From the IMG/VR virus record IMGVR_UViG_3300017716_001697, positions 128,001 through 192,000 of that record: 64,000 nt of DNA; one strand, 5' to 3'. The stretch comes from a virus. Taxonomy: Duplodnaviria; Caudoviricetes. Below the pieces are notes generated by a model, which worked only from the letters and a program-made list of their open reading frames with translations, had not been told where the DNA came from and ran no database searches. Of the stretch, positions 10,397 through 34,406 are shown piece after piece. The position numbers and the translations under genes are program-made. Numbering within the stretch: the first letter of the stretch is position 1; the number at the start of each line of letters is the position of its first letter.

Positions 10397-10996
10397 ATGG
10401 ATAAAATTATTCTAACTGACTGCGATGGCGTCCTATTAAAATGGGAAGAAGGCTTTGATTCCTTCATGATGTCAAACGCGCATGCACGATTACCAGAAAC
10501 ACGGTCAGAATATAGTATGGCCTTGCGTTATGGAATAACTGTTAAAAAAGCTCAAGATTACATTAAGTTGTATAACGAAGGCCCTGCTATAGCGTCACTA
10601 GAACCGTTCGCAGATTCGCGTGAATTTGTAGCTAAATTAGCACAAGACGGCTTTAGATTCATTGCTGTAACTAGCCTAAGCGATCATCCTGACGCACACA
10701 GATACAGGACACAAAATTTAAAGGCACTATTCGGCGATGTTTTTGACGAAGTTGTGTGTTTAGAGATGGGTGCAAGTAAAGCACATGTTCTTATGCGTTG
10801 GGCCGATAGTGGTTATTATTGGATAGAAGACCACATGCGCCAGGCCGAAGCTGGTCACGAGGCAGGTTTAAAGACTATCTTAATTAAACATCCGTATAAT
10901 AAGCACTATTATACTGACCTATTCCCTATCGTAAGTTACGAAACCCCGTGGGAAGAAATTTACAATATCATAACGGCTACTTACGCCACTGAATAA
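10397..10996 (+). CDS. HAD-superfamily phosphatase (5'-nucleotidase-like)
   Basis: Motif I LTDCDGVL, VTS, K, WIEDH. Confidence 0.85.
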   Translation: MDKIILTDCDGVLLKWEEGFDSFMMSNAHARLPETRSEYSMALRYGITVKKAQDYIKLYNEGPAIASLEPFADSREFVAKLAQDGFRFIAVTSLSDHPDAHRYRTQNLKALFGDVFDEVVCLEMGASKAHVLMRWADSGYYWIEDHMRQAEAGHEAGLKTILIKHPYNKHYYTDLFPIVSYETPWEEIYNIITATYATE

Positions 10997-11009
10997 ACAT
11001 ATAGAAGAT

Positions 11010-11460
11010 AATAGTTAGTGCTCTAAGACATTCAGCACCGGGACAAGTGGGCGCGAAGGCCACACCTATACCCAAAATATCTGAAATAGATATATCCCCC
11101 GAGCTTCTACGGGTGGTTGTAACGTTCCCCACATACATAGTTGTGGATCAGGACTCCCATTGGAGCGAAGATAGCGTTACAGTAAAAATTTATAAATTTG
11201 CTGCCGGTAAGTGAAAGTAAGGTATGCCCGGCAGGCTGCGCTATAAGTGACTGAAAACGAATAGCATATGCAGTGACTACGAAAGTAGCCCATCTATGAC
11301 GTCCGTAAGGATACAGTTGACATAATCAATCCAAAACTGTTTAAAGTTATATTTCAGTCTATATTGACGCTGTCAGAATAGTATGTGTTTAAATTCTGCA
11401 GAAATGCAGGTGTTAAACACATACCCTTTCTATATCTCTACCGTCAGTGTATATTCTAGT
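11010..11460 (+). ncRNA. candidate large structured non-coding RNA
   Basis: ORF-free gap between convergent genes with at least 10 predicted helices, several closed by GAAA/GTAA loops on the + strand. Confidence 0.55.
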
Positions 11461-11576
11461 CAAAAATAATATCTTTACACATATGCCATATTCTCTTAAA
11501 TATCTGCAAATAGCCAATAAAAAAGCTTGCACCCATTACAGATACAAGCTCGCTATATCTCTTAGATATTATCTAA

Positions 11577-12326
11577 TTAATCTTCTTCTCCATAGATCTC
11601 TAAGACATCTGCGACTATAGGATCGCGTTCAATATGCTCTCTACCGAACTTGCATACTTCCATGGACTCTGGTCTACGACCTGCAAGACGTTCTAAGAAG
11701 TCTTTAAGACCATTCTGCGAAAACCCACGATCATGCTGATGTAAGTCACCTGTGAGTACCATACTACTGCCTTCGCCGATACGTGTTAACAACATCTTCA
11801 TTTGATCAGGTGTTGCATTCTGCATTTCGTCAGCAATGATGTACGATCTCTTAAATGTACGACCACGCATAAAGCCTAACGGGGCAATCTCGATAGTACC
11901 TTCTTCTAACATCTTAGCAGTTTCCATTAATCCATAATATTCTTCAAATACATCGAAAATAGGGCGTGTCCAGGGCTCCATCTTTTCATTTAGTGTACCA
12001 GGTAAGAAGCCGTGTTTTTCATCAACACTTACTGCTGGTCTTGTTAATACAATCTTTGTAATCTCTTGCGAACGTAACGCCTGTATTGCTCTCAATACAG
12101 CTAACAATGTTTTGCCGGTGCCCGCTGGGCCAACTGCGAATACCATACGTTTTTCTAAAAGGGCTTCTACATACGTCTCCTGGGCCGTATTTCTTGGTAG
12201 TAATTCTACACGTCTATAATTTCTGTTCCCTAATTTTACGACATTATCAACTGATGCAACAGCAGGTTGATTACGTGTCGAACGCGATGGTGCCGATTTA
12301 ACGGCCATTTTACGATTTTTGCTCAA
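11577..12326 (-). CDS. phoH: PhoH-family ATPase
   Basis: GPAGTGKT, LTRPAV, GFLPG, RGRTF, DEMQN; likely TTG start at 12326 after an AGGAG RBS (track start 12458 is probably too long). Confidence 0.93.
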   Translation of the reverse strand: MSKNRKMAVKSAPSRSTRNQPAVASVDNVVKLGNRNYRRVELLPRNTAQETYVEALLEKRMVFAVGPAGTGKTLLAVLRAIQALRSQEITKIVLTRPAVSVDEKHGFLPGTLNEKMEPWTRPIFDVFEEYYGLMETAKMLEEGTIEIAPLGFMRGRTFKRSYIIADEMQNATPDQMKMLLTRIGEGSSMVLTGDLHQHDRGFSQNGLKDFLERLAGRRPESMEVCKFGREHIERDPIVADVLEIYGEED

Positions 12327-12509
12327 GGTGGAACTCCTTAGTGTGGTTATTTTTTCTGACGAGGGGATACTAGGCAAGACTTGCTCGCCTAAAGAGACTT
12401 CGATGGATCTATCGAATGTATGTTGCATACAGATATATTTATGCTTTATTGGATGCATGCGCAGTAATACGATAGCAAAACAAATCTATCACGAAACTTT
12501 AATAATATA

Positions 12510-30259: not shown

Positions 30260-30812
30260 ACTATCAGCAATTATAGCCACCACCTTATTAGTTGGGTGTG
30301 GCACATTAGGCACAGCACCAGTTGCCCCTGATGCAGAAATACTCAAGAGTGTACCGACGAGATCCATTGTGCTCGAAACTCAGGCATTGCTGCCGCATGC
30401 CGAAATGGCTATGTCAGCAATGCCTTCCGAACCAATTGTTGAAAGAGTTGAGGTCACCGGGAGTAGATTATCATCGGAGTCTGTCAAGTCATTCATACCT
30501 ACAACCAAGAAAGCAGTTAAAGTAATTAAGGCCGTGAAGGATGCATTAGCTGACGAGACAGCACCTACCGCACCACCTAGCACAGCACCTACCGCTACAC
30601 CAACCGCACCCGGTCCTACTCCGCGCCCCGCACAGACAGGTGCTAAACTACAGGTATTAGGTATAGATTTAGAGTTCTGGGTAGGTAACGATGACAACTG
30701 GAGTACAGTTTGGAAATTAATTGTCCTTGTGCTATTTGTATATGGTGGATTACGATTTATCAACCTAATAGTGACATACCTCGGTTCAATAACTTTAAGA
30801 ACACAATCATGA
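30243..30812 (+). CDS. lipoprotein with TonB-box-like segment, Pro-rich linker and C-terminal TM helix
   Basis: Lipobox LVG-C; [11 protein letters not shown]; [18 protein letters not shown]; hydrophobic C-terminus. Confidence 0.65.
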
Positions 30813-31132
30813 TAACAATAACAGAAACAGCAGCAACAAGAATAATCGGCATATTGGCAGAAGAAAATAGCCCTACATCGAGATTAAGAATGTTTGTGCA
30901 GGGTGGCGGGTGTAGTGGATTCTCTTATGGATTTACAATAGATAATGTTGTTAACGAAGACGACACTGCGATCAACGAAAGCAATGTTCCGATAGTAATT
31001 GATTCGATGAGCTATCAGTACCTTGTAGGATGTACCCTTGACTACGAAGAAACATTAATGAATTCCCAATTTGTTATTAAAAATCCCAACAGCAGTTCCA
31101 CATGTGGTTGTGGTTCGAGTTTCTCAGTATAA
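30809..31132 (+). CDS. erpA: A-type Fe-S carrier (ErpA/IscA, HesB family)
   Basis: [17 protein letters not shown] and CGCGSSF; start at 30809. Confidence 0.93.
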
Positions 31133-31460: not shown

Positions 31461-34406
31461 TTGTACGTAGACGCCCTTTTTAAAAAGGGTGGTGAAGCAG
31501 AAGTAATTAGGTTGGTAGAACGTGTAAACGGCCAACGTATTTACTCCGAGTACCCACCTGATTATCATTTCTATCTGAGCGACCCAAAGGGTTCGCATAA
31601 ATCTATATACGGCGATGTAGTTAAGAAAATTGCACCACGCACATATGTAGAAAAACAAAAACTACTAAAAACACTATCTTACAATTCTAAGAAGTGGGAA
31701 AGCGATGTTGATCCCATTTTTAGATGTTTGGAACAGAACTATGCATCTGGCGACGCGCCAGCATTGCATGTAGCATTCTTTGACATTGAAACCAGCTTTG
31801 ATAAGGATTCCGGCTGGTCTGATCCTGCAGATGCTAAAAATTACATAACTTCTGTTTCTATTCACTTACAGTGGATAGACGAAATTATATGTCTTGCTAT
31901 CCCACCAGACACAATGACGTGGGACGAAGCACAAGTGATTGCAACAGAAGTAGGTAATGTAGTCTTATTCGATAAAGAAGAAGACATGTTAAATGCATTC
32001 ATGGATGTCATTGAAGACGCTGATGTGCTAAGTGGTTGGAACAGCGAAGCATACGATATCCCTTATATTGTTAATCGTATTAAACGTGTCTTGGGTAAGC
32101 AGGAGACTAGACGTCTTTGCCTGTGGGATCAACAACCAAAAGTCCGTGAGTTTGAGCGCGGTGGCAAGACACAGCCTACATACGATTTAATTGGTCGTGT
32201 ACACGTTGATTACATGCAATTATATAAGAAGTATAACTACGAAGAACGCCACAGTTATGCACTGAATGCAATTGCAGAAGCCGAATTAGGCGAGAGCAAG
32301 TTGCAGTACGAAGGTACATTAGACGAATTGTATAACGACGATTTTAAAACATTCTTAGAATATAACATTCAAGACACACGTTTGTTAGACAGATTAGACA
32401 AGAAGTTACAATTTATTGACTTAGCTAATTCTATCGCACATTCGAGCTGTGTGCTAATTCAGACGACAATGGGTGCAGTGGCAGTAACTGACCAGAATGT
32501 CTTAATGGAAGCACATCACCGTAATCAAGTGTGCCCTGATAAGAAACACGGCAAGGACAGTGAGGACAACCGTGCAGCGGGTGGCTGGGTGGCAACACCA
32601 CGACGCGGGTTACATAAGTGGCTAGGAAGCACCGACATGAAGTCGCTGTATCCATCTGTTATTAGAACGCTTAATATGAGTCCCGAAACAATTGTGGGAC
32701 AGATTAGGCTTGATCGTACTAATGCTGCAATTGCTGCACACGAAGCCAAAGGTGGCAAATACACATTTGCATCTTGGTGGAACGATAGATTCCATGTGTT
32801 AGAGATGGAAGATTTCTATAATGACGATATTGCTAACAAGCTAACGCTAGAAATGGAGAACGGTGATGTGTTTGAAGTCACTGGTGCCGAATTACGGGAG
32901 TTGATTTTTAACGGTGGTAGACCTTGGTGCATAAGTGCAAACGGCACCATCTTCAGAACTGACGTTGATGGTGTAATTCCATCTCTGCTTACTCGTTGGT
33001 ATAATGAGCGTAAGACCCTACAGGGTATTATGACTAATTACACCTTCATTGAAGATAATCCTAAAATCGAAGGCGTTAAAATACCTGAAGATTTGTTCAC
33101 TTTAGCAGACATCAGCGATGTAGAAGCTAAAGCTAACCCATACCTAGAATCAGAGTCATTTAAACCTAAGAAATTGGCGGAATTAGTGACTGACGGGCAC
33201 AAAAAACGTGTGGTTCAATATATGAATCAGCACAATTTGACAGTGAAGGATGGCAAAGCAATTAGCAGAGATCAACCACTGTTAAAGCGCATTATTGGAT
33301 TCTGGGATAAACGTCAGCTTGTTAAGAAAATTAATCTTAACTCTGCTTATGGCGCTTTACTGAATGCAGGAAGCAGGTTCTTTGATCAACGACTTGGTCA
33401 ATCAACTACGCTTACCGGCCGCACAATTACAAAACATATGGCCGCCAAGACCAACGAAATGATTGTAGGGACGTATGACCACTACGGTGATTCAATTATC
33501 TATGGTGATACAGACTCGTGTTATTTCTCAGCATACCCCATGTTGAAGAGTGAAATTGATCGTGGTGAGATTATATGGACTAAGGAAAGCATTGTTGATT
33601 TGTATAACGACCTGGCTAAATCAGTGTCAGCTACATTTCCAGACTTCTTATTGAAGGCGCTAAATGTACCTGTTAAACGCTCAACCGGTGTTATTGCAAG
33701 TTCGCGTGAAGTTGTTGCTGAGAGTGGTCTATACATTGTTAAGAAACGTTACGCCGTATTGATGTATGAAAAAGATGGTATTAGACTAGACGTAGGTGGT
33801 AAGCCAGGCAAAGTAAAAGCAATGGGCCTGGACTTAAAGCGTGCTGATACTCCTAAGTTTGTGCAGAAATTCTTGTCTGACATTTTGATGGATACGCTAA
33901 CTGACAAGGGCGAGAATTACGTTGTAGATAAGATTCGTATATTCAAGCAACAGTTTGAAGATATGAAACCCTGGCAACAAGGTACACCACGTGCAGTTAA
34001 CAAGCTATCTCATTATAGAGAAAAATTGGCAGATGCAGGTATTAAGAAATTGCAAGGTATTAAGGTTGGCAATTTACATGTACCGGGCCACGTGACAGCA
34101 AGTTTAGCATGGAATCATTTGAAATCATTAAATCACGATCAGCACGCAATGAGTATTGTTGACGGTCAGAAAGTTGTTATCTGTAAACTAAAAGAAACTA
34201 CAGAAAACAGACTGACCAGCATAGCCTATCCTGTTGATGAAGCACATTTGCCAGATTGGTTCTTGAGTTTGCCATTTGACAGTGAAGGAATGCAAGACGG
34301 TATTGTTGACAAGAAAGTTGAGAACTTAGTGGGTTGTTTGAATTGGGATCTTAGCAGAACTCAGAAAGAACATGCACACTTGGCAACACTGTTTGACTTC
34401 AGCTGA
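31461..34406 (+). CDS. family B DNA polymerase
   Basis: Exo I FFDIET; motif A DMKSLYPS, motif B KINLNSAYG, motif C YGDTDS; likely TTG start at 31461. Confidence 0.97.
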   Translation: MYVDALFKKGGEAEVIRLVERVNGQRIYSEYPPDYHFYLSDPKGSHKSIYGDVVKKIAPRTYVEKQKLLKTLSYNSKKWESDVDPIFRCLEQNYASGDAPALHVAFFDIETSFDKDSGWSDPADAKNYITSVSIHLQWIDEIICLAIPPDTMTWDEAQVIATEVGNVVLFDKEEDMLNAFMDVIEDADVLSGWNSEAYDIPYIVNRIKRVLGKQETRRLCLWDQQPKVREFERGGKTQPTYDLIGRVHVDYMQLYKKYNYEERHSYALNAIAEAELGESKLQYEGTLDELYNDDFKTFLEYNIQDTRLLDRLDKKLQFIDLANSIAHSSCVLIQTTMGAVAVTDQNVLMEAHHRNQVCPDKKHGKDSEDNRAAGGWVATPRRGLHKWLGSTDMKSLYPSVIRTLNMSPETIVGQIRLDRTNAAIAAHEAKGGKYTFASWWNDRFHVLEMEDFYNDDIANKLTLEMENGDVFEVTGAELRELIFNGGRPWCISANGTIFRTDVDGVIPSLLTRWYNERKTLQGIMTNYTFIEDNPKIEGVKIPEDLFTLADISDVEAKANPYLESESFKPKKLAELVTDGHKKRVVQYMNQHNLTVKDGKAISRDQPLLKRIIGFWDKRQLVKKINLNSAYGALLNAGSRFFDQRLGQSTTLTGRTITKHMAAKTNEMIVGTYDHYGDSIIYGDTDSCYFSAYPMLKSEIDRGEIIWTKESIVDLYNDLAKSVSATFPDFLLKALNVPVKRSTGVIASSREVVAESGLYIVKKRYAVLMYEKDGIRLDVGGKPGKVKAMGLDLKRADTPKFVQKFLSDILMDTLTDKGENYVVDKIRIFKQQFEDMKPWQQGTPRAVNKLSHYREKLADAGIKKLQGIKVGNLHVPGHVTASLAWNHLKSLNHDQHAMSIVDGQKVVICKLKETTENRLTSIAYPVDEAHLPDWFLSLPFDSEGMQDGIVDKKVENLVGCLNWDLSRTQKEHAHLATLFDFS

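What the first reader, a model, noticed from the sequence alone, without database searches (positions are those of the whole stretch)
11010..11460. Candidate large, ornate non-coding RNA between convergent HAD and phoH genes
Seen: ~580 nt with no ORF in an otherwise packed genome, between convergent genes, so not a promoter region. Helices read by eye on the + strand: GTGCT/AGCAC (11018-38); GTGG..GCGAA..CCAC (11047-63); ATATCT/AGATAT (11077-93); GTAACG (11119-24)/CGTTAC (11175-80) enclosing CCACA/TGTGG and CTCC/GGAG (multiway junction); CTGCCGG/CCGGCAG (11201-34); CTGC-GCTAT/ATAGC-GCAG (11236-73); CTAC-GAAA-GTAG; GTCC-GTAA-GGAT; ACAGTT/AACTGT (11313-40); and a 12-bp GTATGTGTTTAA/TTAAACACATAC stem capped by CTGCA-GAAA-TGCAG (11381-11424). 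GNRA loops fall on one strand, which points to function as RNA. I see no tRNA, tmRNA, RNase P or group I/II core motifs. Established: phages carry large ornate RNAs such as ROOL and GOLLD; this could be one of those or a new class.
Basis: partly seen in the sequence, partly recalled or inferred. Interest (0 to 1): 0.82.

Follow-up and report, generated by a model that had tools for sequence, protein, structure and literature searches.

The report
New large structured RNA in jumbo phages
The gap between two convergent genes of a 365-kb phage holds a roughly 450-nt, intricately folded non-coding RNA that matches no known RNA family, is conserved in about 35 related uncultivated jumbo phages, and has a second, ancient copy elsewhere in the same genome.

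Summary
Observation confirmed, interpretation supported. Window about 11000-11447 (+ strand) is a conserved, structured non-coding RNA.

- **Homologues:** 12 distinct copies ("type 1") lie in the same slot, NT5C/HAD-like gene -> RNA <- PhoH. They are in uncultivated jumbo phage contigs from freshwater, peat and wastewater.
- **Structure:** in the central domain, 96% of cells pair across 36 sequences. 31 of 38 pairs show changes on both sides, against 12-18 when partners are slid. The 5' domain gives 22 of 26 pairs, against 2-8.
- **Strand:** in the 12-sequence alignment, G-U pairs outnumber A-C by 27 to 1, so the + strand is the functional one.
- **Pseudoknot:** the P8 loop pairs with the segment after P10, and the two sides covary.
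- **Known families:** Rfam 15 gives no match, even at E<=10. The RNA is not ROOL, GOLLD, tmRNA, RNase P or an intron.
- **Second copy:** a covariance model found a divergent paralogue ("type 2", 63% identical in the core) about 193 kb away in the same genome. It lies between a GH108 lysozyme-like gene and a baseplate module. Type 2 is syntenic in about 24 further contigs and in all four complete genomes tested.
- **Expression:** the only evidence is one 247-nt metatranscriptome contig.
- **Function:** unknown.

The scan had already flagged this same stretch in an overlapping window, and the paralogue at its own locus in this genome. It had nothing from other genomes.

The parts
10999..11007 (+). 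Possible 5' strand of a closing helix P1 (ATATAGAAG), pairing with 11427-11435. The true 5' end of the RNA is near here.
   Evidence: Complementary in the window (9 bp), L171 (8 bp) and L160 (7 bp). Over the family the support is weak: mean z = -0.7 against shuffled flanks. Sequences resembling a -10 box sit right before GAAG in several copies. Tentative.
11018..11038 (+). P2 hairpin (GTGCT/AGCAC).
   Evidence: Helix 1 of model R2: 4 of 6 pairs change on both sides. Also.
11040..11073 (+). P3: outer GGG/CCC enclosing a hairpin at 11047-11065 with a 6-nt loop (GCGAAG; CUGAAA or GGAAUG in others).
   Evidence: Helices 2 and 3 of R2: all 6 pairs change on both sides, 98% of cells paired.
11077..11093 (+). 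P4, a variable hairpin.
   Evidence: A hairpin forms here from unrelated sequences in 11 of 12 type-1 copies. It is absent in L024.
11096..11116 (+). P5 hairpin (CCCCCG...CGGG-GG).
   Evidence: Helices 4 and 5 of R2: 4 of 6 pairs change on both sides.
11119..11180 (+). P6 three-way junction: GTAACG/CGTTAC enclosing P6a (11129-33/11142-46) and P6b (11154-57/11162-65).
   Evidence: Helix 6 of R2: all 8 pairs change on both sides. The inner hairpins form in most single-sequence folds but many of their cells are broken in the alignment. Type-2 copies have only a simple hairpin here.
11201..11234 (+). P7 (CTGCCGG/CCGGCAG), with a nearly invariant apical module GGUAUGUGAAA..AGGUAUGSCC.
   Evidence: Helix 1 of R1: 7 of 7 pairs change on both sides over 36 sequences, 100% of cells paired.
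11236..11273 (+). P8 (CTGC-GCTAT/ATAGC-GCAG). Its loop carries the 5' strand of the pseudoknot, GACTGAA at 11249-11255.
   Evidence: Helices 3-5 of R1. Pseudoknot.
11277..11288 (+). P9 hairpin (CTAC GAAA GTAG).
   Evidence: Kept through changes on both sides in 5 sequences at each of its three pairs in the 13-row MAFFT alignment A3 (12 distinct copies; L068 repeats L171). The loop is not conserved.
11295..11351 (+). P10 (TATGAC/GTTATA) enclosing P10a (11301-12) and P10b (11313-17/11336-40). The P10b loop holds the motif GAYATAATCAAYCC (11319-11332), kept in every copy found.
   Evidence: Helices 6-8 of R1. The loop is the same in all 36 sequences, but both search patterns required it.
11353..11359 (+). 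3' strand of the pseudoknot (TTCAGTC), pairing with 11249-11255.
   Evidence: The two strands covary: AUCUGAA/UUCAGAU (L338), UUCUGAA/UUCAGAA (L336), CGUUGAA/UUCAACG (L316), and GUUAUA/UAUAAC in a five-member subclade.
11365..11375 (+). H11, a short hairpin (TGAC GCT GTCA). Most relatives have UGRY-N6-GUCA.
   Evidence: Its 3' arm changes in the same sense as the 3' tail motif; this is unexplained.
11381..11424 (+). P12, a long hairpin (12 bp + 5 bp) followed by the conserved motif ATACCCTTTCTAT.
   Evidence: Each type-1 copy forms it from a different sequence. Model R3, built on this domain, also finds all 12 type-2 copies tested. In type 2 it is short, except in this genome's own copy 2.
11440..11447 (+). 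Conserved 3' tail (ACCGTCAG). Conservation ends here.
   Evidence: Alignments.
11523..11551 (-). Intrinsic terminator of PhoH. Not part of the RNA.

Best explanation
Window about 11000-11447 (+) is the gene for a roughly 450-nt non-coding RNA of a previously undescribed family. It acts as a folded RNA, not as DNA and not as a message.

Shown:
- It has three domains: P2-P6, P7-P10, and H11-P12 plus a tail. A loop-to-strand pseudoknot (P8 loop with the segment after P10) ties the centre to the 3' domain.
- Helices are kept by compensatory changes, while two loop modules are the same in every copy found. These are the 14-nt P10b loop (which the search patterns required) and the P7 apex.
- The family has two ancient paralogues. 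This copy is type 1, present in a subset of genomes. Type 2 was found in all four complete genomes tested.

Inferred:
- It is a stand-alone, trans-acting RNA. Its three-dimensional fold presents the constant loops to a partner, which could be a phage or host protein, another RNA, or further copies of itself.
- It would then work as a scaffold or assembly during infection, in the manner proposed for the phage-borne ornate RNAs ROOL and GOLLD.
- The paired, same-sense changes in the two GUCA motifs of the 3' domain fit a common binding partner.

My odds: a real structured RNA family, at least 0.9. The scaffold or partner-binding mechanism in particular, about 0.3.
For: - **Homology and synteny:** 12 distinct type-1 copies lie between HAD and PhoH.
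- **Covariation:** RNAalifold gives 52 of 88 pairs with changes on both sides.
  - Central domain, 36 sequences: 96.1% of cells paired, against 77% when shuffled and 31-52% when slid. 31 of 38 pairs change on both sides, against 12-18 when slid. 253 cells change on both sides, against 26-41.
  - 5' domain: 91.7% of cells paired and 22 of 26 pairs, against 2-8 when slid.
- **Strand:** 27 G-U/U-G against 1 A-C/C-A.
- **Pseudoknot:** the two strands covary.
- **Non-coding:** no conserved open frame.
- **Paralogue and wider family:**. The tree splits the two types with 100/100 support.
- **Own transcription unit at the type-2 locus:** the lysozyme-like gene's terminator is followed by TTGACG-18-TAAAAT in this genome, and by the like in L347. 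The TAAAAT motif is present in nearly all of the 21 type-2 loci aligned.
- **Transcription at type-1 loci:** terminator-like hairpins (read by eye) sit directly upstream of the RNA in L025, L069 and L078.
- **Expression:** metatranscriptome run X22 holds a 247-nt contig equal to 11194-11440 (5 mismatches) and no matching contig on either flanking gene.
Against: - Expression rests on one short, low-depth contig (2.2x) from an assembled RNA library. Neither ends nor strand are visible, and nothing from X22 lies on the type-2 locus.
- No canonical terminator follows the RNA in the window.
- The 5' end and helix P1 are uncertain.
- No partner is identified, and no self-complementary loop is conserved, so oligomerisation is only an analogy.
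- Part of the apparent invariance of the P10b loop is imposed by the search patterns used to collect homologues.
Confidence: 0.7

Rival explanations
1. It is a cis-acting transcript-end element. The structure would belong to the 3' UTR of the upstream gene and would protect the mRNA from 3' exonucleases, or insulate or terminate transcription where two convergent units meet.
For: Both paralogues always lie between convergent genes. In the window the conserved RNA starts 3-20 nt after the HAD stop codon. P12 followed by CCCUUUCUAU looks like a weak terminator, and in copy 2 of this genome it is a 16-bp stem followed by a U-rich run (UUUUUCU).
Against: A 450-nt fold with a pseudoknot and constant loops is far more than end protection needs. 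The RNA keeps its sequence while the upstream neighbour changes: an extra ORF sits between HAD and the RNA in L015, and gaps of 480-540 nt do so in L021, L026 and L069. At type-2 loci a terminator and a promoter-like site separate it from the upstream gene. Close relatives do without it in the HAD-PhoH slot.
Confidence: 0.12
2. It is a ribozyme. The conserved core (P7-P10, the pseudoknot and the constant loops) would form an active site for self-cleavage, ligation or processing of another RNA. The genome's 45 phage tRNA precursors are one possible substrate.
For: The pattern is that of large ribozymes: a pseudoknotted core, strictly conserved unpaired nucleotides and variable peripheral helices. 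The genome carries 45 tRNAs and a tmRNA.
Against: There is no match to any ribozyme model in Rfam, including RNase P, group I and II introns and the small self-cleavers. No conserved cleavage-site context was seen. The RNA lies more than 70 kb from the nearest tRNA gene.
Confidence: 0.12
3. It is a divergent member of a known RNA class (ROOL, GOLLD, tmRNA, RNase P RNA or an intron) that the Rfam models miss.
For: It is phage-borne, large and ornate like ROOL and GOLLD. The source is a freshwater metagenome, and GOLLD was first found in lake data (from memory). The 3' tail ...CUCCACC... of some copies resembles a tmRNA end.
Against: cmscan with permissive filters finds nothing related on either paralogue at E<=10. 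ARAGORN finds no tRNA or tmRNA in the window, and a separate tmRNA elsewhere in the genome. The flanking genes are intact, so it is not an intron. The CCACC tail is not conserved.
Confidence: 0.03
4. It is a DNA-level element: a replication origin, a packaging site, or cruciforms or operators bound by a protein.
For: Both strands fold better than shuffles, and the - strand more so. The element contains TTGACA-like and TGAC..GTCA motifs.
Against: The 27:1 excess of G-U over A-C in paired positions is expected for one RNA strand, not for duplex DNA. A pseudoknot and long-range helices have no meaning in duplex DNA. There are no iterons or AT-rich repeats in the region.
Confidence: 0.02

Closest known systems
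ROOL RNA (Rumen-Originating, Ornate, Large)
   Same: A large (about 580 nt), multi-helix, pseudoknotted RNA that is often phage- or prophage-borne and has no dedicated protein gene beside it. Its function is unknown. Cryo-EM shows RNA-only homo-oligomers (PMC12286853). The type-2 transcript here may be of similar size, about 600 nt, if its conserved 5' extension is part of the RNA.
   Different: The Rfam model gives no match on either paralogue. The hosts and phages differ: these are uncultivated jumbo phages distantly related to Pseudomonas phage PA5oct. The RNA is not next to tRNA genes. There are two paralogues per genome. Oligomerisation is untested.
[quoted passage not shown]
   Same: A phage-associated, very ornate RNA found in freshwater metagenomes, with a better conserved 3' half. 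Here too the 3' two-thirds is better conserved than the 5' domain.
   Different: GOLLD is about 800 nt against about 450 nt here. The Rfam model gives no match. The helix layout is different.
Large ribozymes (RNase P RNA, group I introns)
   Same: A conserved pseudoknotted core, peripheral helices that come and go between lineages (P4, P6, P12), and invariant unpaired nucleotides.
   Different: None of their models match, there are no flanking exons, and none of their conserved core sequences is present.
phi29 pRNA (packaging RNA)
   Same: A phage-encoded structured RNA that acts in trans as part of a phage machine, through loop-loop multimerisation (from memory).
   Different: pRNA is about 174 nt and belongs to small podoviruses. 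There is no sequence or structure similarity, and no evidence links this RNA to the packaging motor.

Membership tests
ROOL | Scores at or above the gathering threshold of the Rfam covariance model. | tested here: not met
   No hit at gathering score in the window or in 12 type-2 loci, and none at E<=10 on either copy.
ROOL | Typical context: prophages and phages of Firmicutes or rumen bacteria, often beside tRNA genes (from memory). | tested here: not met
   The nearest cultured relatives are PA5oct-like Pseudomonas phages. The nearest tRNA gene is more than 70 kb from either copy.
GOLLD | Scores at or above the gathering threshold of the Rfam covariance model. | tested here: not met
tmRNA | A tRNA-like domain formed by the 5' and 3' ends, plus a tag reading frame. 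| tested here: not met
   ARAGORN finds none in the window. It finds a separate permuted tmRNA at genome positions 30533-30892. There is no Rfam tmRNA hit.
RNase P RNA | Match to the bacterial, archaeal or minimal RNase P models, with the conserved P4 regions. | tested here: not met
   No hit at E<=10.
Group I / group II intron | The intron core model matches and the element interrupts a host gene. | tested here: not met
   No Rfam hit. Pfam profiles cover the flanking NT5C/HAD-like and PhoH genes nearly end to end.
Structured non-coding RNA gene (generic) | Secondary structure conserved through compensatory substitutions, beyond controls. | tested here: met
Structured non-coding RNA gene (generic) | One functional strand (G-U asymmetry) and no conserved reading frame. 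| tested here: met
Structured non-coding RNA gene (generic) | Transcribed as a discrete RNA. | tested here: inconclusive
   One 247-nt contig in a metatranscriptome covers 11194-11440 and nothing from that run matches the flanking genes. Only assembled contigs are held, so strand and ends cannot be read. Nothing from that run lies on the type-2 locus.

The most novel reading that the evidence does not exclude
This is the founding example of a new class of large ornate phage RNAs in which two ancient paralogues (type 1 and type 2), kept side by side in several of the genomes, work together. They could form a hetero-oligomeric RNA assembly, or be two specialised versions of one RNA machine (catalytic or scaffold), expressed from different regions of a jumbo phage genome.
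Probability: 0.12. Interest if true: 0.92.

Novelty: categorically new. Interest (0 to 1): 0.82.

Why it matters
Very few large (over 400 nt), highly structured bacterial or phage RNAs of unknown function are known: OLE, GOLLD, ROOL, raiA, HEARO. Each has led to new biology, and cryo-EM has recently shown RNA-only homo-oligomeric complexes for three of them.

This one has a well-supported fold, a covarying pseudoknot and loops that are the same in every copy found. It has a defined phage clade and two paralogues that serve as natural structure-function comparisons. The RNA is small enough to transcribe in vitro, so structure probing, cryo-EM, oligomerisation and ribozyme assays are directly feasible.

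It also shows that jumbo phages, already known for large tRNA sets, carry conserved RNA genes that protein-centred annotation misses.

Tried and rejected
- **Rfam:** at gathering score and at E<=10, only chance miRNA, snoRNA and CRISPR-repeat matches far below threshold.
- **GenBank phages:** blastn of both copies found nothing related. tblastn of the type-2 neighbour u189 found nothing.
- **PA5oct genome:** scanned with model R1, no hit.
- **Pattern scans:** of 110 hits in bacterial and archaeal genomes, none is a family member by nhmmer. Four of the 15 viral hits to the first pattern were chance matches in coding sequence.
- **Divergent copies in the HAD-PhoH slot:** I looked in 14 PhoH-encoding relatives without a hit. 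None of the RNA's motifs occur in the right arrangement. The eight slots checked for frames hold small ORFs, 108-115 aa in the five shortest slots.
- **Closing helix P1:** tested by duplex energies, with weak support only.
- **Partner for the constant P10b loop:** I looked for a complementary site within the RNA by eye and in the genome by search, and found none.
- **General promoter motif:** TATAGGTT and TAAAATAG are not enriched in the genome.
- **Second read-laying run:** gave no RNA evidence at the type-2 locus.
- **Literature searches:** found no description of this RNA.
- **Third model, R3:** its alifold structure captured only 9 bp, so it served for homology only.

Full report
**Setting.** The window is positions 128001-192000 of a 364,576-bp virus record with direct terminal repeats, rated complete. 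The best DNA holder is a freshwater metagenome run. The nearest cultured relatives are the PA5oct group of Pseudomonas jumbo phages (Arenbergviridae). Their clamp loader is 50% identical in amino acids, and the local gene order is the same: GroES, clamp loader, a structural protein, an HAD-like gene, then PhoH on the opposite strand. The gap in question, 10997-11576, lies between an NT5C/HAD-like gene (10397-10996, +) and PhoH (11577-12458, -; Pfam E = 2e-69). PhoH has its own intrinsic terminator at 11551-11523 on the - strand.

**Checking the observation.** The minimum-energy fold of 11000-11460 recovers them. It is better than 100 dinucleotide shuffles on both strands, with z = -3.5 (+) and z = -5.2 (-). 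Folding energy shows structure but not the strand. ARAGORN finds no tRNA or tmRNA in the window.

**Relatives and synteny.**
- PhoH-guided and pattern-guided scans of IMG/VR and of metagenome contigs, followed by nhmmer, gave 12 distinct homologues of the gap sequence. Besides the window these are L015, L021, L024, L025, L026, L044, L069, L171, L160, L077 and L078.
- In every case where the flanks are on the contig, the order is HAD -> RNA <- PhoH.
- The spacing varies. L015 has an extra ORF between HAD and the RNA, and gaps of 480-540 nt separate them in L021, L026 and L069. Six loci have 440-650 nt of extra sequence between the RNA and PhoH. The RNA therefore behaves as a separate module.
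- Other phages with PhoH 67-85% identical lack the RNA. The eight slots checked for frames hold small ORFs instead (108-115 aa in the five shortest slots), and in L040 only about 53 nt separate the two genes. PA5oct has only 82 nt there.
- No stop-free frame is conserved across the homologues.

**Structure and covariation.**
- RNAalifold on seven sequences predicted 88 pairs, 52 of them with changes on both sides in at least one sequence.
- R1 covers the central domain, window 11195-11355, with 38 pairs.
  - On 12 type-1 sequences, 96.5% of cells pair, against 83% when shuffled and 28-41% when slid. 25 of 38 pairs change on both sides, against 2-9 when slid.
  - On 36 sequences of both types, 96.1% of cells pair. 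31 of 38 pairs and 253 cells change on both sides, against 12-18 pairs and 26-41 cells when slid.
- R2 covers the 5' domain, window 11013-11184, with 26 pairs. 91.7% of cells pair, and 22 of 26 pairs change on both sides, against 2-8 when slid.
- Hairpins P4 (11077-93) and P12 (11381-11424) are rebuilt from unrelated sequences in each homologue.
- These alignments were fitted to the models, which favours the structures. The slid-partner controls and the earlier MAFFT-only alignments point the same way.

**Strand.** In the R1 pairs of the 12-sequence alignment there are 27 G-U/U-G cells and 1 A-C/C-A cell. On the opposite strand the G-U cells would be mismatches. The RNA is therefore read from the + strand, in the same direction as HAD.

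**Pseudoknot.**
- The P8 loop, GACUGAA (11249-55), is complementary to UUCAGUC (11353-59), which lies directly 3' of P10.
- Across the family the two sides change together: AUCUGAA/UUCAGAU (L338), UUCUGAA/UUCAGAA (L336), CGUUGAA/UUCAACG (L316), and GUUAUA/UAUAAC in a five-member subclade.
- In type 2 a neighbouring UUUCGG offers an alternative register. The GUUAUA/UAUAAC lineage fixes the partner at the position given here.

**Constant modules.** Two unpaired or apical elements hardly change.
- The first is the 14-nt P10b loop GAYAUAAUCAAYCC (11319-32). It is the same in all 36 sequences, but both search patterns required it.
- The second is the P7 apex GGUAUGUGAAA..AGGUAUGSCC.

**Ends.**
- Conservation begins at about 11000-11010 and stops after ACCGTCAG (11440-47).
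- A closing helix, 10999-11007 with 11427-35, is possible in the window, L171 and L160. It is not supported family-wide.
- Hexamers resembling a -10 box precede GAAG in several type-1 copies. Terminator-like hairpins (read by eye) sit just upstream of the RNA in L025, L069 and L078. That suggests the RNA has its own start.
- No canonical terminator follows the RNA.

**A second paralogue and a wider family.**
- Searching the whole genome with R1 found a second full-length match at 331902-332081 (+), scoring 91 bits. Models R2 and R3 also hit its flanks, so all three domains are shared. It has a simple hairpin in place of the P6 junction.
- This copy lies between a GH108 lysozyme-like gene with a peptidoglycan-binding domain (+) and an unknown 189-aa gene (-), which is followed by a T4-baseplate-like gene.
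- The same "type 2" copy is present in the three other complete relatives tested (385, 369 and 363 kb). One of these lacks type 1.
- A broader pattern scan added about 24 distinct type-2 copies, all in the same lysozyme -> RNA <- u189 <- baseplate context.
- The neighbouring proteins are only 44-69% identical. The RNA core averages 70% nucleotide identity within each type and 61% between types.
- A tree of the core splits the two types with 100/100 support. Pairs from the same genome are 59-65% identical, so the duplication is old and the copies are not being homogenised.

**The type-2 upstream region.**
- Type-2 loci carry a further conserved stretch of about 190 nt after the lysozyme-like gene's terminator. 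It includes the motif TAAAATAG, present in nearly all of the 21 loci aligned.
- In this genome the motif reads TTGACG-18-TAAAAT, and in L347 it reads TTAACT-18-TAAAAT.
- The stretch also holds two hairpins, one of which covaries: CGGG/CCCG, CAGG/CCUG, CAAGG/CCUUG.
- This is either a promoter plus a structured leader, or more RNA. If it is RNA, type 2 would be about 600 nt long.

**Known families.** Rfam 15 (4227 models) gives nothing at gathering score in the window or in 12 type-2 loci. At E<=10 it gives only chance hits on either copy. This excludes ROOL, GOLLD, OLE, raiA, HEARO, tmRNA, RNase P, introns and the known ribozymes, as far as those models reach. The genome has its own tmRNA and 45 tRNAs elsewhere. 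GenBank phages hold no homologue. None of the 110 pattern hits in bacterial and archaeal genomes is a member. Three literature searches found no description.

**Expression.** Only assembled contigs of public runs were available. A freshwater-sediment metatranscriptome (X22) contains a 247-nt contig that matches 11194-11440 end to end with 5 mismatches. Nothing from that run matches HAD, and on PhoH there is only a 35-nt piece of an otherwise unlike contig. Nothing from it lies on the type-2 locus. This is suggestive only.

**What it most likely is.** The data establish a new family of large structured RNA genes in a clade of uncultivated jumbo phages. The window copy is one of two ancient paralogues. 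How it works is inferred. The combination of a rigid, pseudoknotted scaffold, constant exposed loops and variable peripheral helices fits an RNA that binds a partner or assembles into a larger particle. A ribozyme is the main mechanistic alternative, and a cis-acting transcript-end element is the main ordinary alternative.

**An unexplained clue.** The 3' arms of two look-alike elements in the 3' domain (..YGUCARG) change together in the same sense in at least five lineages: GGCA, GGUG, CCCA, GUCC and GUCG. There is no Watson-Crick compensation. That is what a shared external partner, or alternative pairings, would produce.

**Earlier notes of this scan.** The same stretch was flagged from an overlapping window (e1-5367127). 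The type-2 copy was flagged independently as a roughly 560-nt RNA with the TTGACG-18-TAAAAT promoter and a terminal hairpin (e1-5374383, e1-5374376). Nobody had connected the two. Nothing was on record from other genomes.

Noticed in passing
Own genome G000:C1:331740-332190 (= L308:1340-1790, + strand), outside the window: A second, divergent paralogue of the RNA (63% identical in the core). It lies between a GH108 lysozyme-like gene and an unknown 189-aa gene next to a baseplate-like gene. The same locus is conserved in about 24 other contigs.
   Followed up: yes
L308:1168-1355 and the equivalent stretch in type-2 loci: A conserved extension of about 190 nt upstream of the type-2 RNA. It holds the motif TAAAATAGTGTAACAG (kept in nearly all loci), a variable palindromic hairpin, a covarying hairpin with the loop ACUGACGCGC, and GCGTATAGGTTT. 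It is either a promoter plus leader or part of the RNA.
   Followed up: partly
window 11365-11375 and 11440-11447; for relatives: The two ..YGUCARG segments of the 3' domain change in the same sense in several lineages (GGCA, GGUG, CCCA, GUCC, GUCG) without compensation in their pairing partners. Unexplained.
   Followed up: partly
L044:2642-4540 (IMGVR_UViG_3300047994_000119): The PhoH homologue is split. Residues 11-116 and 114-293 are separated by about 1 kb, which suggests an inserted element such as an intron, intein or homing endonuclease.
   Followed up: no
Own genome, positions 3.8-56 kb, 211.7 kb and 215.3 kb: ARAGORN finds 45 tRNA genes. One carries a CUA anticodon (a suppressor type, labelled tRNA-Pyl) at 33705-33780. 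It also finds a permuted tmRNA at 30533-30892 with the tag ANADTFALVA.
   Followed up: no
L031, L035, L036, L038, L043 (HAD-PhoH interval): Relatives without the type-1 RNA carry ORFs of 108-115 aa in the same slot. The slot is a variable insertion site.
   Followed up: partly
window 11523-11551 (- strand): A clear intrinsic terminator for PhoH: a 13-pair stem followed by a T run.
   Followed up: yes
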